This document shows, in pieces, positions 1 to 64,000 of a stretch of DNA of 64,000 nt (position 1 is its first letter; each line of letters begins with the position of its first letter). The notes below the pieces were generated by a model, which saw nothing but the letters and a program-made list of their open reading frames with translations, searched no databases and was not told where the DNA came from. Position numbers and translations under genes: made by a program. The DNA lies in contig QPGO01000246.1 of NCBI GenBank assembly GCA_008632985.1, positions 1-64,000 of the forward strand. The letters are read 5' to 3'. Source of the DNA: Psammoneis japonica. Lineage: Eukaryota.

Positions 1-149
1 TTTGATAGAAGAAACAAAAAGATACATGGTGTATTTTACTAGATTGTTGCGCGTAATCTACAAACATATACACTGAACACCAAGTGACGTCGATGGATAC
101 ATAAAAAATACATCCCATGCTACTCCTCGAATTCGGAACCAACGCGCGG

Positions 150-1110
150 TCCCATTTCTTGAAAATATCCGGTTTGGCCGTGACCACACGGTAAAGAAGG
201 TTAGGGTTGTTTCTAACCCGTGCCAACACCTTGGCCCAAATGCCATCAGGAATCGAATCATGACGCAACAACCGCAAAATGTCTCGCAACATCTCCTGGT
301 CCCTTTCAATCTCAGACACTTGATCCTCGCTAATGCCGTGCCACAAATGGCAGGGATTGACCTTCAAATTTTGCTTCACGCCATCCACTGGGGCCGCCTC
401 CCCACCAACCGCGACACACGCACATCCACGATTGTGTTGTTTTATGCAAGCATTTGTCCGAGGGCTCTTGCACCACCATCTCCAATGCCGTTGCCATCAA
501 GATCAAGAGCATCAATGGATGAGCTTTCGTTCACGCTCCTGACCAACGCTTCAGCTCCGTTTTGCCCAACACGACAATTTGACAGCCTCAAACCTGTCAG
601 TTTGTGTTTTTCATCAACAGTTCGCCAAGACATTCTGCACCTCGATTTCCGATGGAGTTTCCTGAGAGGTCGACCCATTCGAACTCTGCACTCTGTTCCC
701 GGGCTTTGCATGAAGACTTTGCACCATCAGGGCCAATGCTGTTGCAGCTCAGAAAGAGTTCCTTCAGCCGAAAAAGAGAAGGGATGACTTCTGACAAACA
801 CGCTGCACCGTCATCCCCAATGTCGCAGCAAGGCAACCCAAGGACAGACAGCTTTGGGAGCAACAAAAGGGCTCGACAAAAATGTTTCATGCCCTCTGAA
901 TCAAGGTTGCAACCAGTCAAACAAAGGTTTGTTAATTTGCAAAAGGAAGGAAGTTTTCGGCTCAATCACTTGGCACCGTCATTGTCAACTTGCAAGATTT
1001 CCAAGTGATCAACTTCGCTCGGCTTCGTCATGGCCAACACATCTTGCAACCGGCTCATGTTTCCCTCATTTTGCAACCACAGGAGATGTGTCAAATGCAA
1101 CAAGCACACA
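150..1110 (-). pseudogene. RNI-like leucine-rich-repeat (NLRC3/NOD3-like) protein, copy 1, frameshifted
   Basis: ORF fragments in different frames: 597-965 (LTNLCLTGCNLDSEGMKHF, LGLPCCDIGDDGAACL, LFLSCNSIGPDGAKS) and 442-711 (LDLDGNGIGDGGARALGQML). C-terminal IPDGIWAKVLARV..NPNLLYRVV-type tail near 180-260. Boundaries approximate. Confidence 0.8.
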
Positions 1111-1299
1111 ACAGCATTGAGCTTGCCCAAAACTCGTGAAAAAATGGGGCTGGCAGTCGAGTTTGTGGCGGCATGATGGGGTGCGATGCCGTGGTGGCTC
1201 TGTCAGAATTTGCCAGTCATGCACACGCAGAAACTGCACCCACGTCTTGGATTTTGACAGAGTCGAACCGGTCAATTCTGCTTTCTAGCTGGAGCAGCC

Positions 1300-1745
1300 G
1301 CAGCAGCAGCAGCTGGTCTTGTGGGTCCTGCAGCAGAGTGCAATTGCAGCAGCAAAGTGGCATTTGAAGTCTCTTCTGTCTAGTTGCAAAACAAGATCCA
1401 ATGCACAGCAAAGTGCAGCATCACTTGCACAAAACAGGGACAACACGACTCCACTCTCTCTCCAGCGTCCTCTCAGCCACCAACAAAAGCAGGTCAACAT
1501 TTTGCCTCACGGCTGCAGCATTTGTTTAAAGGGCAGCTTGGTGCCATTGCACCAGCTGGTGTCTTGCCTTGATGTGGTCCTTGGGGCTCAGATTTCACAG
1601 CCAGAGCATCTGTGCCGCCAACTTGATGCACAAAAATGCGAGCAAAAAGAGGGCCCCTCTTGAGCTGGCACGCTCAGCTCCTCTTCTGGCACTGCTGTGG
1701 AGTGCTGAAGGACCACTTGAATGTTTTTTTGGATGCAGCTGGTGC
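1300..1745 (-). pseudogene. Eroded 3' fragment of the 'VRF..RGLE' gene, paralogous to 7328-7620
   Basis: Aligns by eye to 7240-7620; ORF 1588-1779 KNIQVVLQHSTAVPEEELS vs KNIQTVVQHSAVLPEEELS. Confidence 0.8.
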
Positions 1746-1749
1746 ACAG

Positions 1750-4700
1750 CTGTGTGTCATCATGGCCAACTAACCCCACTCCCAGTGTGAGCCATTCAGC
1801 GGCTCACATCACGCGAAGTTGCGGGTGTCTCAGGTGGTTTGGGTCAAACCAAAAAGACCCAACAGACAACAGGCAAAAATGTGCAAAACAATGAGATGTC
1901 TGCAAAAACTTGGCATCAGTCAATGCAGTGGCATCTGTTTGAGACAGTGCAAGCTCTTGACTTTGGAAGTTTGCTTTGCTCTTTTGTGTCATTTTTGCAA
2001 TCACAGCAAGGGCAAAAGGAGCCAAAATTCTCTTGGACTCCTGTGCAAGTTGTGCAATTTCTGCCATGTGTGCAATTTGCAATGTGGCTGCTGATGCAGT
2101 TTGAATCCTGCTGCTGACCCTGGTCCAACACAAAACACACAACACCTCTGACAAGGAACTCTGCAGCCAACTTTTGTTTGCTCCATTTGAGACAAAATGG
2201 AGAGGCAGCAGTGCTGCCACACAATTTGATTTCAGAAAGGTCTCAGCACTTGTCACATGCTTCTTCCAACCAACCATTCAACAGCTGCTGAGCTCTCTTG
2301 ATGTCTCAAATGTTCCCTGATTTTGAGCCAAGACAAAGGGTTTGCTTGTGAAGCACATCTTTCTTGTCATTTTGTGTGCATCCTTGCCACTGCATCCTTC
2401 TGTTGGAAAATGCTTGAGCCGTCTTCTTTGATGAAAAGTGCCACAAGATTCTTCCCCATGGTGGAAAACCTTTGCTGTGCAGCAACTCAAATGGTGCTCA
2501 CTGGTTCTTGTCCACAATGGCTTTCAGAAGCAGACTCACACTCTCCAGCACTTGGAGTGCTCCCATGCAAGAAGATGAGCAGCACTGCCAAGAAGCAGCA
2601 CCTGCCTTGAACAAAGAGTTTTCACACACATGTTTCTGCCTGGGGTGTGTCCATCCCATCAATTGACAATGATCTTCAACAACATCTGCGCCAGCCCCTG
2701 TGAAACTTGCATGGTGTGAGAAAAAGTGAAAAGGTTTCGGACCAGCGAGAGTGTGAGAGGCAGCCACCATCTTGCTCACATCCAGGGTGATGATGATGCT
2801 CTCACAACTTGTGCGAGCACCAAGAAAGACAGCCTCCTGCAAACTGTTGTGGCACTTCTGCAAGATGTGTGCTGAGTTGGGACAACAAATGGTGTCTCTC
2901 AAAGGTGCCAACCAAACTGCTCTCAACCATGGCCACCTCACTGCCACCTCACTTGCAAAACACTGCTCATGAGGAGCCAATTTGTTTCAAGTCATTGGAG
3001 CAGCCAAGCATTCACTTGCACTGTGCTTGAAGAACAAGCGCACAAATGAAAGCAGAGCAAGGTGCGAAAAGTGGAAATTGTGAGATTAAATTTTGCTCTG
3101 TGATTTTTGGTTTGTCCGAATGAGTTCTCAATGGCCCAGAGCTTCTGCACTGCTTCTGCAGACAAAAAGCCTTTTGGAGAATGCAGTCATGACAACAGAT
3201 TGTCCGAACACAACTGGCGCTGACACACAAGATGTCAACATCATCCATTGATCGTGTTTGCAATTTTTGACTTCTGATCAACTCTGTGTGATCGTTCTGT
3301 CCTTCGCACGCATCCACGATTGTGGCGCGATTGACAGCACAAGTTGTGCGTGATTTTGCAAATGTGCGTGCCGGCATCATGGCAGTTGCGTGCTGCACAC
3401 TGCAGCTTCTGTTTGCATTGGATGCTTGCTCTGCAAAACCATGGCAAAAAGTCTTTGAAGTTGTTGAGAGAGAACCTGATGATGCTCAAAGTCTGTGTGT
3501 TGCCAAGAAGACTGTCCAGGGGACTGGCTGGCCATCACATGCCATCTCATGCCACACAGGAGTGGGATCTGTGAAACAAATGCAGGAGCACCACAACAAC
3601 AAAATGCTGTTGTAAATTGCTTCAAACTGTGACAAACACAACAACCTCATCAAACAATCACAGCTGCCCACAAGCCAGTTCAGTGCTCTCTCATTTGACG
3701 GCAGCTCAGTTCCTGTGCCTTGACTCTGTCATCACAAACAAAGCATCATCATTCCACAAATGCAAACACCAAACCCAAGACTGGCACATTGCACACCCCA
3801 TCCAGAACCATGCCAGTTCAAGAAGCCCTCCCACTCAGACAAATTGAAACATCCCTTGAAGCATGGATCATCAATCCACTCAATTGGGTGCAACCAAACA
3901 TGGTGGGTTCAAAGGAGACACATCTGCTTGCAGAAATCAACTTGCACAAACAAAAGGCAAAGGGGAAATGAGCGGCATTTGTTGCAAGTTGGGCACATCA
4001 CAGGGACAATTGCAAGCACTGCTTTGAGAAAGGAACACAAGTCAGAGAGTTTGGCGACTTCAGGGAGCATCTGAAGGAAGTCCAGAAGTTTTTGATGCAA
4101 CAGGCATCCAACCCATTTGTGACAAAACATGAAAACAAGAGATGGAGAATGATCAGATGCAACACTCAGTCACCAAGCTGAAGCAACAAGCTGGCCAGAT
4201 GGGGCTGGCATGATCAAAAAACAAGTCAACATTGGCTGAGCAGATCTTCAATGGATTTTGGGGAGCAGCAAGAAGTGCTTTTGGAACAATGTTGTTTTCA
4301 ATGGCTGGCGGCCCCTGAACATGCCACTGAAGAGCAGAGGTTTGTTTGATGCTGGATTTTGCAACCAAAGAAGCATCAGCAGGCATCTTGGCATGTTTCT
4401 TTGAGAACATGCTGGCGCTGAAACCAGTGCTGTGGCCTTTCCTGGTTTCACAAAAAACGATGCAATTCTGCTGTTTGGGGCCAAGCAGCAACATGCTTGC
4501 CATTTTGCAAAGTGCAGTCAAGAAGAAAGCAATGAAGACACTGACTTTGGCAATGAAAAGCACATTGACAAAGATGAATCCATGACAGCAGGTGAATGCA
4601 AAACAGCCACAAAAGACACCATTGAGAGCCAAGCCATGAGATGCATCAAGCAAGCAATTGGACACGCCCAAAACATGGCCTTTGTGCAGATGACAGTTGC

Positions 4701-5700
4701 AAGTGATGTTTCCACAAGGAAGGTGCTTGTTTGTGCACTCCTGAATGCTGTGCACAGCTTGCTCAAAGTGTGGTGCTGTTGGTTGTCAACCATGTTCTGT
4801 TTGTGTGCAGTGCGAACAGTCAAGTTGTTCATGTTGTGTGTTGATTGAGTGCACAGATGACCAAGTTTTGAGGCATGTTTGTTGAGGAGGCAATGTCCCA
4901 TGTGCGGGCTTTGCCTTGCACAACGGCTCCAGAGGACGGAAGACTTGGAAGGGAGCAACAAGTTGCCAGAACCATTCAATGACCACAGCAAGCCCTCATG
5001 CTTGTGTGGCATGCTGTGGCAATGCTTGCAGATTGATGGCATCTGCTGCAAGAGAGACGTGGGCCTCTTTTTGTCATCATCAGCCTCATTTTTCTGATGG
5101 TGTGTTGGCGCGCACCACAGGCAGTGCATGCTTCACTCATGCACCCACAACTGCACAGCATGGATGAAGTCTGTCTCAGTCTGCATGACCAAACTGGCAT
5201 GTGGGTGTTGAGGAGGAGACCCTTCTGGTGAGGGATTTTGCAGTGGATCCATGCACATGAGAAAGAGCTGGGGGTGTTTCATGAGCTGGGCTCATCATGT
5301 GAGAGATCAGGGAACATTGACATGTGGTCTGACTTGCAACTTTGATTTGCCCATTCAAAGACCATGACGAGAAGATGATGCATCTGTTTGCAGGACTGTG
5401 TTGGTCAGTCCAGAGGTTGTGCCAGTGTGCAACCGTGTTGTCATGGTCAAACAATGGCCTGCACTTGTGGAGTCTGATTGAAGCTGCACTGCAGTGTCCT
5501 GGCAAGTGCCTTTGCACTTTAGATGTGCAAAGGCATTTCAACTGCATTTGCAGAAGAGGCAGCATTGTTGGTGAATCAAAGAAAGGGAGTGATTGCAATG
5601 GATGGCTTGTGTGGAAGAACAGAGCATCAGTCGGTTGCCAGACACTGCAAACAGGCAAGCAGGGACAATGCCTCCACTGCACAAAGAATGGTCTTTGGTT
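1750..5700. pseudogene. Heavily eroded coding remnants of unknown identity (TpA/CpG-depleted)
   Basis: Protein-like fragments (e.g. 4432-4848, 5342-5746, 1804-2277) rich in Cys/His and lacking Tyr. No domain recognised. Confidence 0.45.
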
Positions 5701-5864
5701 GAAACCAAAAGACACACAGTGCATTGTGCCAGATTGTTCTGGGTGATCTGCAAACATGCAATGAACACCAAGTGACATTGATGGATGCATCTCATGTGCA
5801 TCCCCCCACACTCCTCAAATTTGGAGCCAATGCGTGGCTCATGCTGCCATGTGAACAAAGCAAC

Positions 5865-6830
5865 ATCCTTTTCTTGAGAACATCCAGTTTGGCCTTGACT
5901 GCATGGAAAAGAAGGTTGGGGTTGTGGCCAACCCATGCCAACATCTTGGCCCAAATGCCATCAGAAATCCAATCATGATGCAGCAACTGCAAAATGTCCC
6001 ACAACATCTCTCCTGGTCCCCTTCAATCTCAGATGCTTGATCCTTGCCAATGTCATGCCACAAAATGCAGGGAATGACATTGTGACATTCAAGCTGTCCC
6101 CCTTTTCTCCAAAAGAGGCACACAACACAATCACAAATGTGATTTTGTTGTTGTGCTCAAGCATTTGTCCAAGGGCTCTTGCACCACCATCTCCAGTGTC
6201 GTTGTCATCAAGACAAAGACTGTCAATGAATGTGCTTTCTTCCATGCTCCTGGCCAACATTTTGGCTCTCTTTTGACCAATGCAACAATCAGCAAGGCAC
6301 AAACCTGTCAGTTTGCAATGTTTTGTCAACAGCTCTCACCAAGACATTCTGCACCTTCATCTCCGATTGAGTTTCCTGTGAGGTCGACACTTTCGATTTC
6401 TGCACTCTGTTCAAGCACTTTGCACAAGGACTTTGCACCCTCAGGGCCAACGCCATTGTGGTTGAGCACAAGTTTCTCCAACCGAAAAAGAAAAGGGGTG
6501 ACTTTCGACAAACACTTGATGCCATCATCCCCAATCTTGTTGGATCAAGCACACACAGCTTTGGGAGGAGTGACCGAAGGGCTCGAGACAAACAGTCCAT
6601 TCCCTCTGAACCAGTGGCACAAGCAATCAAATGAAGGTTCATCAATTTGCAAAAGGAGGGAAGAACATGGCCCAATTGCTTGACACCTTTGACATCAATT
6701 TCTTCAGCCAAGATGAAGATGCTGTCGACCCAGCTCGGGTTCGTTTCAGCAAACACATCTTCTTGCAACCAATGCAATTCCCTCATTGCAACTGCAGGAG
6801 ACTTGTCAAATGCAATGAGCACAAAACGGC
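5865..6830 (-). pseudogene. RNI-like LRR protein, copy 2, frameshifted and eroded
   Basis: Fragments 6326-6511 (LVLNHNGVGPEGAKSL, VDLTGNSIGDEGAECL), 5973-6329 (LCLDDNDTGDGGARALGQML) and 5792-6007 (ISDGIWAKMLAWVGHNPNLLFH). Confidence 0.8.
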
Positions 6831-7076
6831 GTTAAGCTTACACTCAAACGTCGTTGAAAGAATGGGACTGAGATTTCTGTTGTGTTGCCGGGGGGGGGGG
6901 CAGGGGACGTGGGGACCGAGGACGCGGGACGCGGCGGCGAACAATCAGTCTCGCGACACCGGCACATCTCCACTCTCCATCGTGAGTCTGTCAAAATTTG
7001 TCAGTCGTGCGTCGTGCGGTAGTAAGTCCTTCACTCTAATAGCTACTAGAGAGCTAGCTACTAGAATGCCATTTGT

Positions 7077-7371
7077 AGCAGCAGAGTGACATTTGAAGTC
7101 TCTTCTATCTACCGGTAGTAACAAAATACGATCTAATATGGCAAAGTGTAGTGTCACTTGCATATAAAACAGGAACAACGCGATTGTACTCTAACGTCCT
7201 CTCAACGAAAGCGGCTCGAGATTTTGCTGCGCGGGCAGCAAAGTGATATTTGAAGTCTCTTCTAATAAGATCTAATATAGCAAAGTGTAGTGTCACTTGC
7301 ATAAAACAGGAACAACACGATTGTACTCTAACGTCCTCTCAACGAAAGCGGCTCGAGATTTTGCTGCGCGG
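7077..7371. repeat. ~140-160 bp tandem duplication covering the stop codon and 3' UTR of the RGLE gene
   Basis: gcaaagtgtagtgtcacttgcat...gattgtactctaacgtcctctcaacgaaagcggctcgagattttgctgcgcgg occurs at ~7141-7234 and ~7280-7371. Confidence 0.9.
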
Positions 7372-14551: not shown

Positions 14552-17082
14552 CAGGTTGATGGGTCGGATTTAATCGAGTTGGTCAATCTTGTTTAAATCC
14601 TGTCAAGAATGACATCCGAGAAGTCGCGGCGGCAAGTCTTCTCCTCTTTTCAGTTGACGTGAATTCGGCGCCTTTCTCCTTGTCCCAATTTGCAATAATC
14701 TCACCAACCTTTGCATCGCTTGTTTGTTCTCTTATGTTCTCTGACTTTGACAGCAGTGCGTCTTGAATTTGCTCTCGTCGTTTGGCCAATTCTTCGTGTC
14801 CAACCACGCTTGCCACCGATGCGTGTTGTTTCAGAATGTTCGAAACCGTCCTTTCAATGTCAAGGAGCTTCTTGATCCCATGCCTGTTGCCGCGCTTGCG
14901 CCGTGTTGGCTCATCATCGTTGGCATTGTCCTCTTCGTCTTCTTCTCCTTCGTCTGGCTTCTCTGGTGAGTCCTCCTCTCCATCACGGCGCTCTGTCATG
15001 AATCCATTGCTTGCGATTGCACAGGCATTTGCCATTGTCTCACTCTTGCCCGTTGATGCCATTAGAGCACCAAGCTTCACAAGTCGCTCATTGTCATGCT
15101 GCGTTGCTGATTGCGAGCAAATCTGCGTCAGAGCGATCATGCGAAAGGAGCGAGCGCGGGGATTGGACCGATCCCAAATGTCAAGATCCCCATTGCGATT
15201 TCGTCAACGACGGGTTGATGGCATGCAGCAAGTGGGTGCGACAATGTTTGCCCAAGGGATTCTCCCGGCACCCCCTTTTGAAGGAATGCGTGGAACTTGG
15301 CAAGGTTGATTTGCCTCTGATGAATTGTGGAAAAAAATGTTCCTGCAGCTGGAGTGATCGTTGCATTCTCGCTTTTCAGAAATCGTGCAACGACTTGACC
15401 CGTTGGTTGCTCGGAGCAAATGGCTTTTGTGATCCGCTCTGTCTTCAGGTGACGATCATTGTGTTTCCTCACCTGTGACATCATTTCCTTGACGAAGAGA
15501 CTGACCATTTCTTCTTTCCGGCTGCGACAAGACAGGTCTTGCATTGAGTTCACCTGATCCTTGAACGCCTTGAACTCACTCATTGTTGCCATGACGAAAG
15601 GATCTCCTCCAAATCTTCGATCATGAGGAAGTGTCGTGCGAGTCGATGGGGAGTCAAATGACCCGGGTCACCAACATTTGGATCCGTGCCTTGATGCCAC
15701 TTCACATGCGGGTTGAGCCATTTCTGTGCCATTCCCGCAAGGAAACAAACGTCCGTGACAATCCAAACCGAGGCGGCAAGCGACAAAAGGTTGGAGGCAA
15801 CTGCACTCTCTTTCTCTTTGGTCGTGGCATTTTTTCTCACTCCTTCAGCGATCAGCTTCAAGAATTCTAGAAACTTCCGAACGAAGCATGCGAGACATCC
15901 GATTGTCCACCATCGAGTGACAAGTGGCTCCTGCATGGCAAGCATCAAGTCCATTGGGGCATCAATCTCAGCAAGCAAGTTGTCTGGCAACTGCCCTGAC
16001 TCTCGAATCTTTGTCCACGCTGCACTGCTGACTTTTTCCATGCGGGCTTGAGTTCCTTGTACAATGTGCAGCACGTGTGAATAGCTGGATCGCATTGCGT
16101 TTGTCCAAACCGCCGTCACCGACATGAGTCTGGACTGGAAGCCGAAATGCCGACTGGACATCATGCATTCCGCAGGAATCCGACGTGGCCCTTTCATGAA
16201 CATTCCACAGTTGGCAAGAGCTGCACCAGCAGATTCTGGTGCACCTTGACCGGAGTCGCACGTTGCTCCCATCATTCGTCGATCGGACTGCCAAGCCGCC
16301 GCAGGCCATGTTTTGTCCCCTTCGCAATGTCTTCACTCTTCTTGCCATTGCAGTGAGGTCTGACCAGAACTGTGCAATTGTTCCATCCTCTGCATTTGAT
16401 TTGTCATCCTCGTCCATGTGCTAAAGAGTCTCACCTCTTGCCCGTTGTGTCCCCCATCAGATTGAACGAATGAAGCGCCTGCCTTGGACATGAGGTTTCC
16501 GAATGCAAGCAACTGCATGTGGCAAGCTGGACAACCCAATTGTCCAATGCAGTGTGAGAAGGGCTGCAACGTGCATCTTTGTGAGCGAAAGCCACTCGAA
16601 ATTGAACTTGCGGCCGTGTTCGTCCTCTTTGCAAAGTGCTTGGATCTCCCTCATGAACGCATGTCGAGCGATTGTTGTCAACAACTCTTGGTCAGGAGTC
16701 AAAATCTGAGGGTGACTCGATGAAAATGAAGCAAACAGAGTCATCGCATTCATTGCAGGTGAGTGTTTCCGCCTGCTGCAAAGCTTCTTCATTGCTCGTA
16801 CGACTGCTCTCTCTTGTTTGTAGCGGCCAAGATCTCCCTTCTCGACGAGCTCATGACTGTTCTTGCTGCTCTCTTCTTTTGCCATGCACGCGGATGGATT
16901 GCTCGGTTGGCTGCAACGACCAGTGGAGAGAAGCATTTGGTTGGCCTTGTTGACGGGAAAGAAGCCAACCTGATCGACCGGGAATGGCACGTCAGAACAT
17001 GTCGACTTCCAGGACTCCTGGAGCATCTTGAATGCTTCGTCGAAATTCGTTGGAGCTCTCAGCGTTTTATTTGGCTCCTGTT

Positions 17083-17285
17083 GTTCACCTGGATTGGGCG
17101 TTGTTGGACGCGGTCTTTTTGGGTTGGGCTCGTCGTCTTGATGATTCGTTGTCGGCGCAACCTTCGCCGGAGTGCGTTTGATTTCACCTGGACTGGGCTT
17201 TGCTGGACGCAGTCTTTTTGGTTTGGGCTCGTCGTCTTGGTCATTCTTCTTTGTCGGCGCAACCTTCGCCAGAGTCCGTTTGAGC
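17083..17285 (-). repeat. ~102-bp tandem repeat in the transposase N-terminal region (NLS-like)
   Basis: AKVAPTxxxxQDDEPxPKRxRPxxPxPGE occurs twice. Confidence 0.85.
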
Positions 17286-19247
17286 GTTCGACTGGAAGAG
17301 CGGTTGTCCCACATGGCCTGGTAGAAAGACGCATCTTTAGGAACATCAAAGTTGTTTGTAGCTGATGCACAGTGGAATCGAACATTCTTTTCTTCTTTTC
17401 CTTCATTTGTTGTACGGACAGTGACAACCTTTCTGTTGAAGCCAACAGTTGCACCTGACGGCAGCGTCGTTTTGCCATTGACAAAAACCAACTTTCGAGC
17501 TGTTGCTGTGTTCAAGATGTTTGCAGCACATTTTGGAAGAGACTTCCCAATGTGTCGGACCCACTCTTCATCTGCCATCCATTGATTGTGCATCTCCGGG
17601 CGTTCGGTTGCTTCAACAAATGCCTCGAAGGCCTCATTCCGGGACGACATCTTCTTCAATTTGTCCCTGCAGCTAAAAGTTTTTTGACATGAGCTCAAAA
17701 ACAGCATTGTCAACAAGTGTGCAAAATTCTTTTAGCTGCCGATGGGCACTTTTCAAGAACGGGGTCGCATCGGCTCTTTGCCCATCATCGTTTGTCGGCT
17801 TCTCCCGTGCTTCAGTGCGAGGCGCGCCAAATTGGAGTGAGCAAAAACGACGAGTCGAGCCAGTCAAGTTTCTTGCGAACCCCAAATTTATTGTTTATTT
17901 CAATTCTATGTGAAGTTTATTGTGAAACGGTTTCTACGGGATCTTGTGCCCACAGATTCTTGTCGAAGTCTAGAATCTCCAGGTCGAAGCGTTTTCCGAT
18001 CGTCCACCCAGAGAGAGGGTGCATTTCCACTTTCCACCGGCATTCTCTGGCACAAAATACGTTAGATGCATCTGATGACATGAAATGGCCACACCTTCTG
18101 GTGGACCACTTGGAGTCTACAAACAACTTTGACATGGGTCATCTTGTGTGGTCATGTCGTCTCCGTTGCCATCTTGCCTTCTTGCAGAGGACACGTGGCT
18201 TCTCTGGCTAGAGGTTGCATGGACTGTGTGCTCCGAACACACCTCCGAAGCACCCTTCTACTGGCTGCTGTAGAAGCGCTCTCTACTGCTAGCTAGAGAG
18301 TAGCCCTAGACTATTTCATAGTTGTCTCTACTCTCTACCGGTAGAGTAAGTGCCGTAAAGGAGCAATGAGATAGATGTTCAGAAAATGACGGTCGGTGGT
18401 CATCAAGACTCAAGAGTCTGTTGCAGTCTTGACCTCATGGTAGAGTACACGTGGCTTTTCCTTTGTTACTTAGGAATGGATACTGAAAGGGTGGTGTTTG
18501 TTAAGTAGGTTTGAGCTGGTTTCTGTGTCTTCGGTCTTGGGGCACTTTTTGTTGTCGGAAACAGGATTGAGTATTCAATTGCGTTGACCTACTTGATCGG
18601 TCATTACGACTAAAAGCATCAGTCTTCTCCTTCCTTATCTATTTGGTCTTGCGGGGCAACTTTTTTGTAATTTTAAGTCTTGCTCAATGTCTTTGCAAGA
18701 CATAGCACTTCGTAGTAAGATTCTGTAGGTTGTACAGCGGTGGTCACAATTCGAATGACTGGCCACGCACGTCGGCTGCGGCGCATTTTTTTGGCGGCGC
18801 ACCAAGCTTGGTGTTCGGTGTTCCATCTCACAACTCAACAAACAGCAACAAACGAAAGAGTGTGTTGCTATTGAAGGCGTTGTCCATTGGTAAGTGTATC
18901 CTTCTGTCCCGTCAATTCAGGTTATCGCTGTGTAAAGGCTGCGTCGCGTCACGTCACATCTCGTTTGGTGAGCCGCTCTGTTTCAACGCGGCGGCGGTCA
19001 TAGGTTCAAGGTCATACGGTTGCGACTGGTGTATGGCTTATCTTTGTTTCCCCATGTGGCTACTTATAAAATAAGTTCGGTTTCCCTTTGGTACTCATAA
19101 GACATATGAGTATTTTGTATCCTTATGGTACTTTTGTAAGATGAAGATTTAGTCATGTGTCTCATCCATACCCTTTCTCGTTTCTCCTCACCGAATTACT
19201 AAGGATTTTTTCGAATCGAGAAAAGTACAGTCCACGCTACGTCCAAG

Positions 19248-28404: not shown

Positions 28405-28579
28405 GATGCCTGGTGGATATGCAACGAGCAGAATGAAGACGACTTCATTCGACGTGCTGATTGATGTGCTGAAAAAGGAAAAAGATACGAGCGACGCGAA
28501 ATAGCGAGCACATGCCGAAAGCACAGCGATCGACCCGCCGCTTGCGCGTCGCGATCCGCCCTCGCGAGGTGCTGAAAAG

Positions 28580-31500
28580 ATTGTGTCGCCCATCATGACA
28601 CAAGGCTTTCATGCTCTGTCTCAACCTCTGGCATCTGTCACTTTTGTCTCAGTCTGGTGCTTGCAGAGGGACAGACCAGTGCCATCTTCCTGTGCTGCAG
28701 GCACCGAGGATGGAACATGGGGCTGCATTCCCCGCGTGCAAAGATGGGCTGTGCCCTCGCTGTCACGACGCTCACCATTCTCGCATCAACAAAGCTGTGC
28801 ACTTCTGAGTGTGGTTTTTGCCATTTGTCTGCAGCAAGCCACGTCTCTGCTGTGCTTGACGCTGCCTTTGTTCTGGCTTCTTTGTTGCCGGGCAGTGCAT
28901 CCACAGCACACACAGTGCCACAAAAGGAGCAAAACGACATCGTTGTTCAAGGCAAGGCTTGAAATGCTTGCACTTTTTTTGTGGTCCAGCAGAACCTGCT
29001 CTGGCGCACGCACTGCTTGAGTGTTTGCCACAGCATCTGTCACTGCTCTCTCCCACACTGGCGCTGACCAAGGTGTCTTTGCAGCCACCATCTCTCGACT
29101 TGCCAGAGTCCTCATTGACACTCAGCAAACTGCTGGATTGACCAGGACTTTTTGAGATGTGACACAGGTTGATGGCAGGTTTGTCATGTGTGCTGAGGAA
29201 GGCTGGGCAGCCTTTGCCAATGGTCTGCCAAGCTCACTCATCACACAAATCTCATCATGACAAGAAATGGCCAGCCCACCCTTCTTGCACTGAAGAGCAT
29301 GTTGAGTGAAAAACTTGCATTTTCACATCATGTGTGTGCACAGGTGTGCAATCCAGTGGAGACATGTCACAGTTTCTTCTGCAATCTGACACTTGGCATT
29401 GTGTTTCTGGAAGCCATGTGCGTCTGACATTGCCCGGCCTGTCAGCTTCTGGGTGGAGGTCCAGCCATCCCACATGTGAGCACCAACGCAGGAGCTGGTG
29501 CAGGCTGTGCATCATTTCTGGGATCAATCATGCCAAGTTCCCAGCCCCCCCCCCCAGCCCTGGCATTGCTGTGAGAAGCTCATGTGTTGGGTGGCTTGAG
29601 TCACTGGAATGCTGGAAAATGAGTGAGCAGGTGGGTGGAGGCAAGGGGCAAGAAAAAAACACAACAACAGAGGCCAGAATGCATGAAGGTGAGGAGGATG
29701 ACAAAGAAAGCAGCAGCAACAGAGAGCCTGCAGCAAATGTGCAAAGATTTGCTGAAATGCCAATGAGACGCAAACAATGGCAAAGGATGCTGCAAAATGT
29801 CTTTGTTGCAAATCTTTTGTGAGACTCTCCAAGTTGTCAAGGAAACTTTGGATGCTGCTGACTGTGCAGCAGCTGCAGCTTCAAAGCTCTTCTCATTCAA
29901 AGATTTTTGCTTGTCATCAGTGTTTCCAGAGAGCCGTCAATGGTCACTTGTGTGTGGCTTTGACATGATCCCCTTGGCAGCCAAGGCACCATTTCACGCC
30001 TCTTCTGTGGATCCCTGTGCACCAGGAGCGGCCAGGACTGGAGGTTCAAGAGCCGCCAATGCCTCTGGCAACTGAACTGTGTGACTTGCCAATGCAGTTT
30101 TAACACAGATCAGAAGGAATGAGAATGCGAAGAGATGTCTGGAGAGAAGCCAGCCAGAGAGCTGCAAGCTCAACTCTTGATTTTCCTCTGGGTGGGTGAT
30201 TGTGCAGAGCTGCCCTTGATGTCAGCAGGCCCAAGTCAGTGCCCTCTTTGCTTTTTCTGCTGGGGCAACAGCAAAACAGAAAGTCAGAGCAAGTGGCAGC
30301 AGCAAATTGGTTGGTTCTTGGGGGCTCTCAAATCACCATTTGTCTTTCTCCCAAGTGTCTGGCAGTCTTGGGGCAGGGAAGAGTGTTTCTTCCCCAGACA
30401 CTGGCAAAGTTCAACTTTTCAATGTGCCGCCAGTCAACACATCTCCAAATTCTTGGAGATGAATGTGCACAATGTCAGGAGATCAACTGGAGCTGTTTGG
30501 CCAGATGTGCCAACCCATGTGCATTGGGTGTGAGATGGACTTGTGAACAAGTGGCTGTCCATCACATGTGAGCTGCGTGCTGCTGTGCACTGCACACAAA
30601 CCAGACATGCAGCATGTGTGGCTTTCAGCTGTGCTGTGTGCTTGCTGTGAAAGCAGCACAAATGACACATCACCTGAAGACACTTGCTCAGATGGCACAG
30701 CAAATTAACCTTCCATTGCAGCAAAGGGGCTGCTGGATGCTGTGATCAATTGTGTGGATGAGCCCAAGGTTGGGGTGTTGTGAACAAAGTCAGGGAGCAG
30801 CAATGATGTTGCTTCCTTCCACAACAAGGCCACAGCCAGCCCTGCTTGAGTTTGTTGCTCTCAGGCAACTCATTTTTTGCTCCAAAAGTTGGTTGGACAA
30901 TTGGCAGGCCAGTGCTGCTGTGGTTGCTTTTGCCAGCCCACTTCCCCCAGCAACAAGCATGCCAGGTGCATGGACAGCCCCCTTCATTGCCCAGCTCTTC
31001 ATCTTGTGCACATTTGTGGCTCCAATGAAGCAAGGCAGACAAGCCTGCAACAAGGCCATTTCCCAGCACCACACAGACAAACCTTTTGCATTGCAAGGAG
31101 CGATGTGATTCTCACAGAGAGCTCCATGGCCCGACCTGCTTGTGGTGTGTCTTGGGGGGCAGTGTTGGACAGTTTGCATGCATGGCTTGTGACGACTGGA
31201 CCAATCACCAGCAATTTGCAGCTTGGCATCTGCAAGCAAGAAGGAAAAACACAGGGGGCCAGGATGCTCACTCTGTGACTTGCAGCAGAGTTGCTTTCAA
31301 CCATGTGTGCACTTCTTGTGCCTTGCACATGGTTTCCACTCATCACCAACGTGGCACCCAGTGCTGACAAGACACACTTGAGATGAGCCAATTTCAAGAG
31401 AGCCCAACTTGCCACAAAGGCAATCAGGCCATTGTTGCCAGGCAAGGTGGCTGCTGAAAATTCACTTCCCCCTGCTTTTCTTTTTTTCCCAGAAGGGCTG

Positions 31501-34095
31501 CAATTCCACAAGTCCTGAAAATTGAGCCACTTTCCAATGTTGATTTGCAGATTCATTGTGGAGTCTTCCATCAGAGCATGGGTGCAACATGCATGCTGCC
31601 TGGTGCCCACCCATGGAGGCAAGCTCATCTTCAAATGAGGCACAGAGCAAACCCACGCTGTGGCTGTTCAAAGATGAGGCAGCTCCCAAGTGGCAGCAGA
31701 TTGTGCAACCCTTCTTGCCCAACCCCAAACCATCATGGTGAGAGATGAAACTTGAAGGTGCAGCAACTCAAGCACAAAAGCAAGAGCCCAGAATTTCCTC
31801 ACATGCTCAAGGCTGGAGTCACCAACATGCTCATGTGCTGCTGAGGCAGTTGGCAAAAAATTGCACCCCTCCATGTGTGGGGCCACCTGCTGGCACCAGC
31901 ACATGCACCTGTCAACACAAGGCTTGCATGCTTCCACAACAGTCTTGAAGTGAAGCTCATCATCAAGTCATTGGTGGCAATGCCCCCCCCCCCCACTTCA
32001 GGTTCAAGAAACAACCAAACTGGCTGGCTGGTGCCTGAGAGCATGGCTGCCAATGACACTGAGTTTCCAAGAGACAAGCCTGCAGACAATTTGTTGTTCA
32101 AGACAGTGCCCATGGGAGGGAAGGGTGCAACGCACCCTGCCCTGCTGCACCAAACTGCTTCACAGCTGCAATGAAGGTTCTTTTGCCAGAGCAGGAGGGG
32201 TTGAAAGAAGCCAGAGACATCTTCAAAGGAAGCCAAGCCCCCCAGTTTACAAACACCAAGTCTCCAGCGGCAATGTGCTTGAGCATGTTTCACCACCACA
32301 ATGCTTTTGGTTGGCAACAAACAAGCCACCATTGCAGACAAAAAAGAGAGCTTTGGGAGTGGGCGCCTCTCCACAAGGCAAAAAGCCTTGACCAACTTTT
32401 CTTGGCAGGCACACAGTGTGCATTTCCTTGGCTGTGTGCTTCTTCTGGCTTGACTCATTTGTGTCCTGAATGATCATCTCACAAAACACAACCATGCAGG
32501 TGTTCCTTCAATGAATCAACTGCAAATGTTTTTGAACAGTGCTGCTCCCCCACAGTCTTTTGTTTTTGCTTTGACTGTGCATGATTTGAAATGCTCTTGT
32601 TCAAGGGCTTTGTGGTCATCTGTTGTTTTCTTGACAGCGGGCTCAGAGAAACATCCCTTGCTGAAAAAAAAGCCTCCATGTCAGCCATTTGAGCTGCAAT
32701 GCAGAGCATGTCTTTGGTGTTCAGCACATCATGTTGGGGCTCACACCACCAGCATTGAATGCCTGGGAAATGCCTTGCTTTTCTGTGGTGTGAGTCAGCA
32801 CATTTTTGAGGCCAATGGCAGCATCCTGTCTTGAGTGTGCAACATTGAGAGGGTTTGGTTTGCCAAGTCTGCAAAACAACAAAAATTGGCCACCTGATGT
32901 CTGCCTTTGCAGCCCTCATGATTGTTTGCACTGGCCATGATTGTTTGTGGCCATTGAACCCACCACAAATTGTTGGGGCTGGCCATGGCACAACAGCATC
33001 AAATTGCCAGAGCACTGCACCCATGTCACTTGATTTTTTGTTGAGCACTGCACCCGTCACTTGATTTTTTGTTCTCAAACACCACACAAACCTCCCTTGA
33101 GCTGGCAAACAACTCATCCAAGCTTTGTGCTGCAGACACTCTCTCTCACAGACATGTTTTGCCAAGCAACTCAAGCGCGGCAGCTCAGCTGAGGTGCTGC
33201 CACCTCCTCTCCTCAACCAAAACATCATTTGCGTGTGCACACTGCCATTTGTCTTGATGGCAGTCTTGTGCTCATGAGATGCTCCTGCTTCTTGGTGGAC
33301 GAGATTGTGTGGGCACAATTGGCAAAAGAAGAAAATCTTTTTGACTCAAAGCAGGGGGGGCTGTGCCTTCTCGGTGAACGAGATTGTGTGGGCACAATTG
33401 GCAAAAGAAGAAAATTTTTTGACTCAAAGCAGGGGGGGTTGTGCAGCATTAACTTGCTCTTTTGACAGCCTCACACCAGCCAAAGAGCGGAATTTGGAAA
33501 AGACAGACTTTCTGTCAGTGTCTCTTGGCGTCTCCGCCAAGTCAATGATCATGACAAGCACTGTTCTTGATGATGTCTCTTCGTTGCAATTTGCAAGAAG
33601 TCTTGTTGCAACAGCATCTGCAGAGTCTCTTTCCACACATTTGCCAGGTGCAGAGACCATCAGTGTTGTGAGCAGCTCCAGCAACAAGAAAAGAGCCGTG
33701 AGAACAGCCACCTGGCTTGCGCAAATTTGACGTTTTTCTTTGACCAAGCTGGCTGTCATTGTGTTTCATGATCACTTCTTTGAAAAGACCAGCACAGCTG
33801 CACATGACACATAAAGAGAGAGTGCTCCTCAGAGAGCTCAGCAACAAAGAGAAAAGAAGCACAGGCTTGAACCCGGCACAGCTGCTTTGCTTTTTGAGCC
33901 ACACAGGAGGGCAGAGTTCTCCCGAAAGGAGGCGAAGTGAACCAAATCAATGCTTTGACATGGGGTCACCCATTTCCCACCATTGTTCCCATTGCTTTAC
34001 AAAATTAACAAAATTGTTGGCAACAAACCAACACTGTGTGGTGTCTTGTGGTGGTCTCCAGGTGAGAGTAAAACAAGCTGTGCTCGGTGCTCGAC
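28580..34095. pseudogene. 5.5-kb TpA/CpG-depleted domain with eroded, unidentified coding remnants
   Basis: About 8 TpA seen in ~5.5 kb. Cys/His-rich overlapping ORFs. 33424-33759 has an N-terminal TM-like segment. No TIR or LTR found. Confidence 0.55.
33288..33444. repeat. ~79-bp tandem duplication
   Basis: cttct(t/c)ggtg(g/a)acgagattgtgtgggcacaattggcaaaagaagaaaat..gactcaaagcaggggggg(c/t)tgtgc x2. Confidence 0.92.
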
Positions 34096-34343
34096 AGATG
34101 GGGGGGGGGGGGCGGGTGATGCGAGATGCGATGGGCGCGCGGCGAGATGAAGTGAACGACGTCAACGACCTGACGTCACAGTTTCAGTTGGAGGGAAAAA
34201 ACGAACGAAAAAAAACCGCGACGTCGCGGGGCGAGAATAAGCATAATGATGAGCAATGAGGCAGGGGGAATAAAGAACACTTTCTCTCCTCACTGGCACT
34301 GCCAGAGGACGACAAAACAAAAAGATCGATTAGGAAAAACCCA

Positions 34344-56322: not shown

Positions 56323-56599
56323 TGACTATATGAAATAGATTGTTTATTGTATTGCACTCTTAACTCTTCGACCTGGCCGGTAACGATGAGACCGCCATGG
56401 CTCAGACCGAAAGGCCGAATATCTTTCGGAATGTATTTTTAATTTATTCATATAAAATTTTAAAAGCAATAAAATATGAATGAAGATACAAATTATCTCT
56501 CTCCCGATGATAGTGACAGCGTTGGATTCGACCAAAATTTCAAAAAAAGTGCGGGAAAACACACGCAAATTTTTCAGTAAAAACAAGTAAAAGCTCAAA

Positions 56600-57900
56600 A
56601 AATGTGAGGCTGGCATGTCTCATGCATTGTGGCATGGCGCTGTCACTTCACATCCTTGGTGTGCTTGCATTGAAGCCAACGCATCAGTTTTGTGCCCCGA
56701 CAATGGCACCCACATCAACAGTGAGAAGAAGTCGTCGTCACTCAGCATCATGGAGCCATGTCGGAAGCAATGTGGAGAGCTGTCTCACAACAGCAGCAAC
56801 GCCAAAAACTCCATGTTGGTCGACAAAAGTCAACAGTGTCAACTCACTGTCCCAAGTCCATCATTGCACTTCATGTTGCCAAGCTGTCCAACACTTAATT
56901 TGCATGATCAGTGCATTGATCGGGGGATGTCTGTTTGCGGCGCCAGCGTCATTGGCGTCGTGCGCAACACTCTGACACGTGAGCTTTCGAGCCACCAGTG
57001 CGGCGCCCTTGTGTGTGGCTTCTTTTTTGTGCTTGGGGCTTTTTTGAATGGGTTGGCATGTCACCCACCTGGCTGTTGGCAGAGTCAAAGACCCCTTGAC
57101 ACCACTTGCCAGCAAGGAAGTGCAGCACACGATGGCACAAGAAGCACAAGAGAATCTGGAGCTGTGCCACGTGTGTGTGTGACAATGATGCTGCCATTCC
57201 AAGTTTTCACAACAAGGCTTTGTCGCTGGAACATTTTGCACAATCTCTTCAAAGACAAGTTGGGCACAAAAACACGTCTGGCACCAGCTTGGATCATGTC
57301 ACAAGCTCTTGCCCCTGCTTGTTGTTTGCTGTTTGTGTTTTGTTTTCTGGAAAAAAGAGAGAGTGTGTCTTCTTGTTGCTGAGATCTCATTGTTGGTCTC
57401 AGAAATGTGGGTTTTGTGTGCAACACTGAGGACCCTCTTTGCACATGTGCCAAGATCCTTTCTCAAAAAAGTCTTTGGTCTCTGGAAGCCCACATGTCAG
57501 TGCTGGTGCCCCAGAGCTTGGCAGCCCGCCGCGACGGAATCCAGTGTGTGTTTTTCAGTCAAACTCCAGCGAGAACCTTTGCCTCTCTTTGGCAGCAGAC
57601 CCACCTCCTCATGTTTGCCACCCCTGAATTTTGTCAGAGGCATGACCAAACAGTCAAACAAAATTTCTGCAGCGGAAAAGCTGCTGTGCACCCTGGCGAT
57701 TTTCGCACAGTTGCGTGCAGCCCCACAGCCCAGAGCTGTTGTGCAGCTGATGATTTCAATGCCTCTGGTGTGGTTTCCATGGTGTTGATCCACCACACTG
57801 CTTCCTTCATTTTCTTGCTGTGTTCAGGATCTGCATCTTGTTTCACAAAGTGCAGCCACTGCAGATGGTGCCTGCCTCTGCTGGCTCTCAATCACGCACA
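56600..57900. other. Small TpA-depleted (and largely CpG-depleted) domain of unknown origin
   Basis: A single TpA seen (cttaat, ~56896) in ~1.3 kb; Cys/His-rich ORFs; AT-rich flanks. Confidence 0.7.
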
Positions 57901-58471
57901 CACCGGTACATGGCTGGAACAATCCGTCCATCCGCCTGTCCGCTCGCTCGCTTAACCGGGACCATCACTGATCTGCCTCGTTTAACAGGGGCGTCGCCTA
58001 TCTTTATATTCACATACACCGATGAATGATAGTTAAAGGTTTCTTTGGTGTCGGCGATCATTTGCCTTGACTGAGATTATGGATATAAACCAAATTATGA
58101 AAGGGCAGTTTAATTGGATAAAAATCATCTGAAAGCATTTAAAGGAAAAGGTCATTATGAATGACAAGAGTGTTCTCATGTCGAAGAACGCTGTTGAAGT
58201 CGTGTGTAATTTGGCAGTAGAATTCTACGCGGTAAAGAACAATCTCGTGAGAACATACCAACATTCTACGCTCCTGGCAAATGATGTCACAATTCTAACA
58301 CTTTCCATTGGTTCCCTCGCGTGCAATCCTCGTCTTTTTGCGAAGGCGGAAACTGGGCAGCGAACTCCATCAATCCGACGACGTTGTACGATTGATGGAA
58401 AGGGTGGCGAAGAACAAATCCGAATCGCTCTCTAACACCAGAGACACGACGCACTCTTCATAAAAATTGTT

Positions 58472-63659: not shown

Positions 63660-64000
63660 GTTCAAAATGTACACCAGTCTCTTTCGCTCAGTGGATGGCA
63701 TTTCCAGAAATATGGTCAAACTCTGCAGGTGCCCATCACATGTTCACACAATTGACAGGGCAAACCCATGGCAAACAACACACAGGAGCAGCAACAACAC
63801 AATGCAGTGGTGGCAAGCAAAGCAAAACTTTCACAGGCATCAGTGAACCATGGACACCAAAAAAAAGTGACTGCCAATGCTGTGAATCTTCCAAGAATGG
63901 CATCATAACAGGTGGTTGACATGGAAAGGAATTTATTTTGGGTGGGGACAAATTTTGCCATGGGTGCCACTGTGCAACAAGAGCTGACAGCATTTGCGTT
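63660..64000. other. Edge of another TpA/CpG-depleted domain
   Basis: TG/CA-rich with few CG or TA; continues past the window end. Confidence 0.55.

What the first reader, a model, noticed from the sequence alone, without database searches (positions are those of the whole stretch)
260..6830. Regional TpA->TpG/CpA hypermutation ('reverse-RIP'-like) together with CpG decay
Seen: between ~1773 and ~6830 I find only 3 TpA by eye (~3087, ~3613, ~5520). CpG is also scarce and TG/CA are abundant, while flanking genes have ordinary TA and CG. ORF remnants have Cys/His where Tyr is expected, and TAA/TAG stops are gone. Established: 5mC deamination explains CG->TG/CA and fungal RIP creates TpA, but neither removes TpA. 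Inference: a second, domain-targeted mutagenic process converts TpA to TpG/CpA in silenced or repeated DNA. Candidates are adenine deamination, a modified T/A base, or error-prone pol-eta-type repair (known WA->WG bias). I know of no description of such a genome-defence system in diatoms, but cannot confirm novelty without a literature search.
Basis: partly seen in the sequence, partly recalled or inferred. Interest (0 to 1): 0.95.

Follow-up and report, generated by a model that had tools for sequence, protein, structure and literature searches.

The report
TpA-erasing hypermutation domains in a diatom
Several kilobase-sized blocks of this diatom chromosome have had almost every TA step rewritten to TG or CA, a DNA-scrambling signature so far reported only in a 2026 preprint on an unrelated alga, and here it also runs into neighbouring host genes.

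Summary
Positions 1773-6830 hold exactly 3 TpA (O/E 0.01), against about 200 expected from the flanks. CpG O/E is 0.20 and TG/CA O/E is 1.8-1.9. The TA-free block runs 215-6832. The window has three more complete blocks (14734-17700, 28503-33998, 56589-57906) and the start of a fifth at about 63711.

The block starts inside one copy of a duplicated LRR gene region and ends inside the other, so un-mutated paralogous stretches give polarity. Of 28 aligned ancestral TpA, 24 became TG or CA and none survived. Of 40 CpG, 27 became TG or CA. In block 2, conserved Tyr columns of relatives read His or Cys.

High-accuracy contigs from a public run reproduce the TA-free sequence at single-copy depth, so a base-calling artefact is unlikely.

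The organism is a diatom. The same TpA>TpG/CpA hypermutation was seen directly in Bigelowiella natans mutation-accumulation lines (bioRxiv 10.64898/2026.01.13.699255). Six literature searches and two targeted look-ups found no diatom report.

Verdict: a real, in-situ, domain-restricted TpA hypermutation plus separable CpG decay. It is a new member of a very recently described kind, and the enzyme is unknown.

The parts
215..6832 (.). TA-free block D1 (the finding). It holds 10 TA against about 258 expected; CG O/E is 0.29, TG 703, CA 797.
11..1152 (-). LRR (RNI-type) gene region, copy 1. Positions 11-214 are un-mutated; from about 215 onward it is TA-free. LRR_6 hits fall in two reading frames, so it is a pseudogene.
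1341..1740 (.). Mutated copy of the upstream region; its un-mutated paralogue lies at 7070-7607.
1773..5700 (.). Core of D1. It holds 3 TA and is also CpG-poor. It is single copy at 80% or more likeness, and its origin cannot be recognised (no Pfam hit in any of six frames).
3040..3340 (.). Approximate limits. A high-copy repeat sits inside the core (k-mer depth about 19,000 against about 50). It is CpG-rich but has only 1 TA.
5701..6870 (-). LRR gene region, copy 2. It is mutated up to 6832 and un-mutated beyond.
6890..6900 (+). G11 run followed by a CpG-rich stretch, 57 nt outside the right edge of D1.
14734..17700 (-). TA-free block D2. It holds 13 TA against 116 expected, but CpG is normal (O/E 0.86). 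It is a multi-copy gene of an unnamed family with several frame breaks, and conserved Tyr reads His/Cys.
28503..33998 (.). TA-free block D3. It holds 5 TA against 214 expected; CG O/E is 0.19. No recognisable coding content.
34100..34112 (+). G13 run followed by a CpG-rich stretch, about 100 nt outside the right edge of D3 and upstream of the LON-domain gene at 34260-35681.
56589..57906 (.). TA-free block D4. It holds 1 TA against 51 expected; CG O/E is 0.41, and the CpG-poor core lies at about 57000-57500.
63711..64000 (.). Start of a fifth TA- and CpG-poor block, cut by the end of the window.

Best explanation
In this diatom, a chromosomal, region-restricted mutational process changes the A:T pair of TpA steps into G:C, so that TA becomes TG or CA. 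It acts one hit per site, on either strand with about equal chance, and it has run to saturation in kilobase-sized blocks.

The blocks are centred on degraded DNA that is probably foreign or mobile, and they extend 0.4-1.5 kb into neighbouring host sequence, stopping sharply. A second and slower process, deamination of methylated CpG, has eroded CpG in the inner parts of the older blocks.

The process is of the same kind as the TpA hypermutation seen de novo in Bigelowiella natans. The most likely chemistry is enzymatic deamination of adenine to hypoxanthine in a 5'-T context on DNA marked as silent chromatin; I put this at about 40-45% on its own. This step is inferred, not shown. Because TpA is its own reverse complement, sequence cannot tell whether the A or the T is the base attacked. 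The confidence given (0.6) is for the whole statement; that the blocks are real, in-situ TpA>TpG/CpA mutation I hold at about 0.85-0.9.
For: Shown:
- TA O/E is 0.01-0.07 in four blocks with edges sharp to 100 nt or less.
- D1 begins inside one copy and ends inside the other copy of a 5.7-kb-spaced duplication. Un-mutated paralogous DNA therefore gives polarity. In zone A, 15 TpA gave 7 TG, 6 CA and 2 other. In zone C, 13 TpA gave 8 CA, 3 TG and 2 other. None of the 28 was retained and none became CG.
- A>G per A is 13/31 and 12/27 after T. After A, C or G it is 3/49, 3/34 and 0/27 in zone A, and 10/58, 8/56 and 7/52 in zone C.
- Where both copies are mutated, 16 aligned YR steps are CA in one copy and TG in the other. 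This means the hits were independent and came after the duplication.
- In D2, relatives from 11 metagenome loci have normal TA (O/E 0.44-0.66), and their conserved Tyr reads His/Cys in the window.
- D2 and the outer 0.4-1.5 kb of D1, D3 and D4 lack TA but keep CpG, so the two losses are separable.
- Contigs of run X1 (458-817 nt, depth 50-63, 0-9 differences each) carry the TA-free sequence at the depth of single-copy flanks.
- Half of the listed differences between those contigs and the window in the core (9 of 18) are CpG<->TpG/CpA. CpG decay is therefore still polymorphic, while TA is gone in both.

Inferred:
- The process acted persistently or recently. With 5-8% C>T differences at non-CpG sites, the 1183 CA+TG of the core should have re-created roughly 30-95 TA if the purge had been early and single. 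Only 3 are present.

Precedent:
- In B. natans, 230 of 231 single-nucleotide mutations in the two hypermutable regions were A>G or T>C, and all of these fell on TpA (sections read).
Against: - No enzyme, base modification, chromatin mark or transcript could be examined, because no whole genome is held.
- The cores of D1 and D3 have no recognisable homologue. Their foreign or mobile origin is therefore assumed. For those cores, the TA-to-TG/CA direction rests on continuity with the polarised flanks.
- The 'ancestral' copies are paralogues, not true ancestors. Background divergence is 13-18%.
- In zone C, non-TpA A>G is also raised (25 AT>GC against 12 GC>AT), so specificity may not be absolute.
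- The sequencing platform of run X1 is not on record, and the run may come from the same sample as the assembly.
- Host LRR genes are hit as well, which sits awkwardly with a purely 'anti-foreign-DNA' reading.
Confidence: 0.6

Rival explanations
1. A modified base at TpA, not deamination of adenine, is the lesion. Candidates are a hydroxymethyl-uracil or J-type thymine modification, or a methylated adenine, placed in silent chromatin. It mispairs at replication and gives T>C (or A>G) transitions.
For: TpA is palindromic, so T>C and A>G at TpA give the same products. Outcomes are not far from parity (10 TG: 14 CA in zones A+C). There is no strand clustering beyond background at 50-500 nt scales. 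This fits a symmetric mark on duplex DNA at least as well as a single-strand deaminase does. That dinoflagellates carry 5-hydroxymethyluracil preferentially at TpA is recalled, not checked.
Against: The high-accuracy contigs read plain TG/CA, so the changes are fixed mutations, and any modification is not needed to explain the reads. No TET/JBP-type gene could be looked for, because no genome is held.
Confidence: 0.2
2. Error-prone repair synthesis makes the A:T mutations as a by-product of repairing T:G mismatches from 5mC deamination in methylated blocks. The model is pol-eta-type WA>WG, as in phase II of somatic hypermutation.
For: TpA loss and CpG loss coincide in the cores of D1, D3 and D4.
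Against: D2 and all block margins lose TpA without losing CpG. AA, the other WA motif, is not depleted (AA O/E 1.21-1.23), and A>G at AA is 3/49 and 10/58 against 13/31 and 12/27 at TA. Conversion is saturating (0 of 28 TpA kept), with almost only transitions (24 of 28).
Confidence: 0.06
3. The blocks are foreign DNA, viral or other, that already avoided TA and CG before it integrated. On this view nothing mutated in place.
For: The cores of D1 and D3 have no homologue and no polarity information.
Against: The same signature continues without a break into host-derived LRR gene copies and their upstream region, where un-mutated paralogues prove TA>TG/CA in place. It also appears in D2, whose relatives have normal TA and Tyr. 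The frames are full of TGA stops and are Cys/His/Gln/Trp-rich, which marks decay, not adapted coding.
Confidence: 0.05
4. RNA-level A-to-I hyper-editing (ADAR-like) of transcripts, followed by reverse transcription and re-integration or gene conversion.
For: ADAR prefers a 5' U. This is stated in the preprint's discussion.
Against: Both strands are hit within the same short stretches (the TG and CA outcomes are interleaved in zone A). Specificity for TpA is near absolute. The block spans two host gene copies, their intergenic DNA and an unrelated core in place, with edges unrelated to any transcript.
Confidence: 0.03
5. Sequencing, base-calling or polishing artefact at modified bases.
For: The platform behind the assembly and behind run X1 is not on record.
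Against: Contigs rebuilt from a public run by exact 31-mers, at depth 50-63, carry the TA-free sequence with 0-9 differences per 458-817 nt. That depth is the same as in the flanks, and it is not attainable with noisy reads. The blocks also carry indels, frame breaks and 13-18% ordinary divergence, as real old pseudogenes do.
Confidence: 0.03

Closest known systems
TpA hypermutation of integrated NCLDV/virophage DNA in Bigelowiella natans (Mettrop et al., bioRxiv 10.64898/2026.01.13.699255; abstract, Results and Discussion read; supplements closed)
   Same: The change is the same (TpA>TpG or CpA, transitions only). It is regionally confined, and there is a long-term footprint of TpA-poor, CpA+TpG-rich clusters. 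Affected genes are mostly unannotated or TE/virus-like.
   Different: The lineage is different (diatom, Stramenopila, against chlorarachniophyte, Rhizaria). Here the end state is saturated (TA O/E 0.01-0.07), whereas the preprint gives Rho 0.45 for the NCLDV region and a cluster cut-off of 0.43. Here the block demonstrably overruns host LRR gene copies, and it coexists with CpG decay that has a narrower footprint. No de novo mutations were observed here, and viral origin is not shown.
Fungal repeat-induced point mutation (RIP)
   Same: It is a regional, saturating, transition-only scrambling that destroys reading frames in duplicated or mobile DNA.
   Different: The direction is opposite: RIP turns CpA into TpA and so creates TpA. 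RIP follows the limits of duplicated segments, whereas D1 starts and ends in the middle of the duplicated segments. RID/DIM-2 dependence is not testable here.
CpG decay by deamination of 5-methylcytosine in methylated transposons
   Same: CG>TG/CA at 27 of 40 aligned CpG. C>T is specific to CpG: 10/28 and 20/52, against 11% or less in other contexts.
   Different: It explains only the CpG part. Its footprint is narrower than the TA-free footprint, and it is absent from D2.
ADAR A-to-I hyper-editing and APOBEC/AID DNA deamination (metazoan antiviral editing)
   Same: Deaminase-type transitions with a preference for the neighbouring base, aimed at foreign or repeated nucleic acid.
   Different: The substrate here is chromosomal duplex DNA in place. 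Both strands are hit without strand-coordinated clusters, and the target is A:T, not C:G.

Membership tests
TpA>TpG/CpA regional hypermutation (B. natans type) | Mutations fall on TpA and give TpG or CpA | tested here: met
   24 of 28 aligned ancestral TpA became TG/CA, 0 were kept and 0 became CG. A>G after T is 13/31 and 12/27, against 0-17% after A, C or G.
TpA>TpG/CpA regional hypermutation (B. natans type) | Confined to discrete regions, with a rate orders of magnitude above the rest of the genome | tested here: inconclusive
   The discrete blocks with edges of 100 nt or less are shown. The rate is only inferred, from 3 TA present against 30-95 expected to re-arise. No mutation-accumulation data exist.
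TpA>TpG/CpA regional hypermutation (B. natans type) | Targets integrated viral, transposon or other foreign DNA | tested here: inconclusive
   D2 is multi-copy (depth 160-320 against about 50). A relative of its gene lies about 2 kb from a Mutator-like transposase in 1 of 11 loci (L005). The cores of D1 and D3 are unidentifiable. A viral-contig scan found no relative. Host LRR gene copies are also hit.
TpA>TpG/CpA regional hypermutation (B. natans type) | De novo, episodic occurrence in cultured lines | not testable with these tools
   This needs mutation-accumulation lines of this diatom.
Fungal RIP | C:G>T:A transitions, mostly at CpA, creating TpA | tested here: not met
   TpA is removed, not created. 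C>T at CpA is 2/35 and 6/56.
Fungal RIP | The mutated tract coincides with the duplicated segments | tested here: not met
   The duplicated segments are 11-1740 and 5701-7607, and the mutated tract is 215-6832.
5mC-driven CpG decay | CpG>TpG/CpA, specific to the CpG context | tested here: met
   27 of 40 CpG became TG/CA and 5 were kept; context specificity comes. Methylation itself is not testable.
Pol-eta-type WA>WG mutagenesis | Both AA and TA are targeted, with some transversions and strand bias | tested here: not met
   AA O/E is 1.21-1.23 in the block. A>G at AA is 3/49 and 10/58. There is no strand clustering.
ADAR-type RNA hyper-editing fixed through a retro-copy | A>G on one strand only, within transcript limits | tested here: not met
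   TG and CA outcomes are interleaved. The block spans genes, intergenic DNA and an unrelated core.

The most novel reading that the evidence does not exclude
Diatoms and chlorarachniophytes, and hence possibly much of the SAR supergroup, share a chromatin-targeted DNA-editing defence. It recognises the palindromic TpA step on duplex DNA and rewrites one of its two A:T pairs per site. It is independent of cytosine methylation, spreads from invading DNA into adjacent host genes, and is halted at promoter-like G-run/CpG-rich boundaries. It would be a eukaryotic 'mirror image' of RIP, with an as yet unidentified enzyme that may attack thymine rather than adenine.
Probability: 0.35. Interest if true: 0.88.

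Novelty: new member of a known kind. Interest (0 to 1): 0.72.

Why it matters
If the process is what it appears to be, TpA-specific hypermutation is not a peculiarity of one chlorarachniophyte. It would be a genome-defence or heterochromatin-linked mutator present in diatoms, one of the most important groups of marine primary producers.

The diatom blocks show the saturated end state, with TA virtually extinct. They show that the process overruns host genes, pseudogenising members of an LRR family. They also show that it can be separated from CpG methylation decay.

This has three practical consequences:
- TA-free blocks are a trivially computable marker for finding targets genome-wide and across algae.
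- They explain why much diatom repeat DNA has no recognisable homologues.
- They give a tractable system, since diatoms are transformable, in which to identify the enzyme. That enzyme would be a natural, sequence-context-specific A:T-to-G:C DNA editor.

Tried and rejected
- **Whole genome.** Not held, so no genome-wide scan, no TE consensus spectra and no search for deaminase or TET/JBP genes was possible.
- **Pfam, six frames.** D1 core and D3 scanned with stops read as X: 0 families at E<=1. Pfam on the long ORFs of the blocks also gave 0 families.
- **HMMER on a D3 frame.** A 782-codon D3 frame against 1.84 billion representatives gave 1 hit at E 4.7e-4 and none at 1e-10, so it is uninformative.
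- **ESM Atlas.** Closed for new sequences.
- **Viral-contig scan with the D2 family.** 12 pattern matches, 0 confirmed.
- **Rfam on the whole window.** 0 matches.
- **Internal repeats in the D1 core.** None.
- **Strand-coordinated (kataegis-like) tracts.** One polarised stretch shows 8 TA>CA followed by 3 TA>TG (2 runs; about 0.012 by my own count of arrangements, from the order printed). The other polarised stretch is mixed. CA-versus-TG dispersion in 50-500-nt bins and runs tests are no different from background. I therefore do not claim strand processivity.
- **RNA evidence.** No RNA holder listed.
- **Earlier findings of this scan.** No notes on this genome and nothing on this sequence. 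The TpA word search returned only phage and bacterial cases among the 8 shown.
- **Literature for diatoms.** Searches found none. Passages of PMC6604790 (P. tricornutum mutation accumulation) report a GC>AT bias and no TpA hypermutation. 10.1101/2025.10.24.684338 has 0 occurrences of dinucleotide, RIP, hypermut, deamination, TpA or methylation.
- **Supplements.** bioRxiv supplements (Tables S2, S6-S11 of the B. natans preprint) are closed and were not seen.
Full report
**Observation.** Between 1773 and 6830 (5058 nt) there are three TpA, at 3087, 3613 and 5520. TA O/E is 0.01, CG 0.20, TG 1.94 and CA 1.82. The next 5 kb has TA 0.70, CG 1.07 and TG/CA about 1.1. Outside the depleted blocks, TA occurs at 0.039 per nt, so 215-6832 should hold about 258 TA and holds 10. 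The longest TA-free gap (1907 nt) has probability about 5e-33 per start. The edges are abrupt: 17 TA in the first 214 nt and then 2 in the next 250 nt, and 0 TA for 1313 nt before 6833 followed by normal density.

**The feature is not unique in the window.** Three further complete blocks exist: D2 at 14734-17700, D3 at 28503-33998 and D4 at 56589-57906. A fifth starts near 63711. Together the four complete blocks cover about 16.4 kb of the 64 kb.

**Polarity.** Self-comparison shows a direct duplication about 5.7 kb apart: 11-1152 matches 5701-6870, and 1341-1740 matches 7070-7607. The duplicated DNA is an RNI-type LRR gene on the minus strand plus its upstream region (LRR_6 hits, split over two frames in copy 1).

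The TA-free block begins inside copy 1, near 215, and ends inside copy 2, at 6832. Some stretches are therefore mutated in one copy and pristine in the other. Using the pristine copy as a proxy for the ancestor gives the following:
- In zone A, 15 TpA gave 7 TG, 6 CA and 2 other.
- In zone C, 13 TpA gave 8 CA, 3 TG and 2 other.
- None of the 28 was kept and none became CG.
- Of 40 CpG, 27 became TG/CA and 5 were kept.
- All other sites differ by 13-18%.

Folded over both strands, A>G occurs at 13/31 and 12/27 As preceded by T, which is about one hit per TpA. After A, C or G the figures are 3/49, 3/34 and 0/27 in zone A, and 10/58, 8/56 and 7/52 in zone C. C>T is specific to CpG.

Where both copies are mutated, 16 aligned YR steps read CA in one copy and TG in the other. 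This is the mark of independent resolution of the same ancestral site after the duplication.

A third comparison used the same mutated stretch against a second tandem un-mutated copy. It is not independent, and it agrees: of 10 TpA, 7 became CA, 1 became TG, 1 was kept and 1 became TT. A fourth, short and poorly aligned stretch at the right edge (1 TpA, 11 CpG, 32% background difference) was left out of the totals.

**Protein-level confirmation.** D2 carries long minus-strand frames of an unnamed family. There are 13 homologues at 38-56% identity, all either labelled 'hypothetical protein' or unnamed, and none with a Pfam domain. In the alignment of the window's frame with 11 of these 13, the nearly invariant Tyr of WYQG, VRYFLM and D[VI]Y[FL] read His, His and Cys in the window.

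Counted per column, of 7 columns where at least 60% of at least 3 relatives have Tyr, the window has His 4, Cys 1, Ala 1 and Tyr 1. All 11 Trp columns and 14 of 22 Phe columns are kept. Counted per cell, which is not independent, 104 Tyr cells give 43 His, 12 Cys, 12 Phe and 6 Tyr.

DNA of 11 metagenomic relatives has ordinary TA (O/E 0.44-0.66), so the depletion is specific to the window's copy. D2 is multi-copy in the organism: contig depth is 160-320, against about 50 for single-copy DNA. In one of the 11 relatives' loci (L005, the only one examined for neighbours), a Mutator-like transposase (PF20700, E 3e-25) lies about 2 kb away on the other strand. This is a hint, no more, that the family rides on a DNA transposon.

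**Artefact test.** One public run (X1) holds 75% of the sampled 31-mers of 1500-7500. Its contigs cover the TA-free core in pieces of 458-817 nt, at k-mer depth 50-63, with 0-9 differences each. That is the same depth as the neighbouring single-copy DNA. Such exact-word depth implies accurate reads, which report modified bases as their canonical parents. I infer the platform, because it is not on record, and the run may come from the same sample as the assembly.

The differences are informative. Of the 18 listed in the core (the table shows only the best supported), 9 are CpG<->TpG/CpA and two together make a CA<->TG double change. No contig restores a TA. CpG decay is therefore still segregating, whereas TpA loss is complete in both sequence versions.

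**Two processes, not one.** D2 has lost TpA (O/E 0.07) but not CpG (0.86). In D1, D3 and D4, the TA-free footprint exceeds the CpG-poor core by about 0.4-1.5 kb per side, except at the right edge of D3 where the two end together. A roughly 300-nt high-copy repeat inside D1 (depth about 19,000) is CpG-rich yet has one TA.

I read this as a fast TpA process plus a slower, narrower, methylation-type CpG decay. A single enzyme with two activities is not excluded, but it would need very different kinetics or targeting for the two activities.

**Target and spread.** D1 does not follow the limits of the duplicated segments (11-1740 and 5701-7607, against 215-6832). It is therefore not repeat-induced in the RIP sense. 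It looks like a domain centred on the unrecognisable 3.9-kb core, extending about 1.5 kb to the left and 1.1 kb to the right into host LRR genes.

The right edges of D1 and D3 lie 57 and about 100 nt before G11 and G13 runs. These are followed by CpG-rich DNA upstream of genes. The only other G/C runs of 8 or more in the window lie inside D3. This suggests promoter-like barriers, but it is an observation from four runs only.

**Strand behaviour.** TG and CA outcomes are not far from parity (10:14 in the two independent zones). One stretch shows 8 CA followed by 3 TG. However, bin dispersion at 50-500 nt and runs tests do not differ from background. I therefore see no evidence for long single-strand, processive events. 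The data fit site-by-site hits on duplex DNA, or many small events over time.

**Persistence (inference).** C>T differences at non-CpG sites are 5-8%, and the core holds 1183 CA+TG. About 30-95 new TpA should therefore have arisen if the purge had been early and single. Three are present. The process was thus recent or long-lasting. This assumes that the core is as old as the duplication.

**Identity of the organism and state of knowledge.** The AP-3 delta adaptin in the window is closest to diatom proteins: Ditylum 72%, Nitzschia inconspicua 71%, Cylindrotheca and Bacillariaceae bins, and an unnamed best hit at 76%.

The closest described phenomenon is in a 2026 preprint on the chlorarachniophyte Bigelowiella natans. 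I read its abstract, Results and Discussion; its supplements are closed. In mutation-accumulation lines, 230 of 231 single-nucleotide mutations in an integrated giant-virus region and a virophage region were A>G or T>C, all of these on TpA, at about 6e-7 per site per generation. The authors report 124 clusters of TpA-poor, CpA+TpG-rich 1-kb windows, and they propose an ADAT2-like DNA adenine deaminase.

Six full-text searches and targeted look-ups in a diatom mutation-accumulation paper and a diatom TE preprint found no report for diatoms. The library does not hold most subscription-journal papers.

**Mechanism.** I commit to in-situ, chromatin-domain-restricted hypermutation of TpA. The most likely chemistry is adenine deamination. 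A mispairing modified T or A at TpA is the main rival. Because TpA is palindromic, sequence cannot separate the two. Four other readings each fail a tested feature (see the rival explanations and the membership test): pol-eta-type WA mutagenesis, ADAR editing fixed through retro-copies, pre-integration composition of foreign DNA, and artefact.

**Verdict.** It is no longer categorically new because of the B. natans preprint. It is a new member of that kind, in a second and ecologically major lineage. It adds three features: saturation, overrun of host genes, and separability from CpG decay.

Noticed in passing
window 6890-6900, 34100-34112, 29545-29555, 31983-31994: These are the only four G or C homopolymer runs of 8 or more in the 64 kb. 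All are tied to TA-free blocks. Two G runs (11 and 13) lie 57 and about 100 nt outside the right edges of D1 and D3, each followed by CpG-rich promoter-like DNA. Two C runs (11 and 12) lie inside D3. They may be boundary or element-end features.
   Followed up: partly
window ~3040-3340: A very high-copy repeat (contig k-mer depth about 19,000 against about 50) is embedded in the D1 core. It is CpG-rich (11 CpG in 3251-3500) but has a single TA. No Rfam match.
   Followed up: partly
window 46681-48918 (+): A single 745-aa frame joins polynucleotide kinase 3'-phosphatase (PNK3P + AAA_33 kinase) to an aldo/keto reductase domain. This is an unusual fusion of a DNA-end repair enzyme with an oxidoreductase.
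   Followed up: no
window 19203-21011 (+): A frame with LPMO_10, a PKD-like domain and GbpA domain 2: a chitin-active lytic polysaccharide mono-oxygenase architecture in a diatom.
   Followed up: no
window 13882-14104 and 14383-14605: A 223-nt direct repeat at 97.8% identity lies just left of D2. It may be a terminal or sub-terminal repeat of the element that carries D2.
   Followed up: no
L005 5610-7805 (-): A Mutator-like transposase (PF20700, E 3e-25) lies about 2 kb from a relative of the D2 gene family in a metagenome contig. The unnamed family may be a MULE passenger or accessory gene.
   Followed up: partly
L010 (1402 nt): This relative of the D2 family has an intermediate dinucleotide profile (TA O/E 0.44, CG 0.47, TG 1.39, CA 1.37). 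It may be a partly mutated copy in another environmental diatom.
   Followed up: no
window 2354-2355: The window reads CA where the public run's only contig reads TG. This double difference is best explained by the two sequence versions having resolved the same ancestral TA or CG independently.
   Followed up: partly
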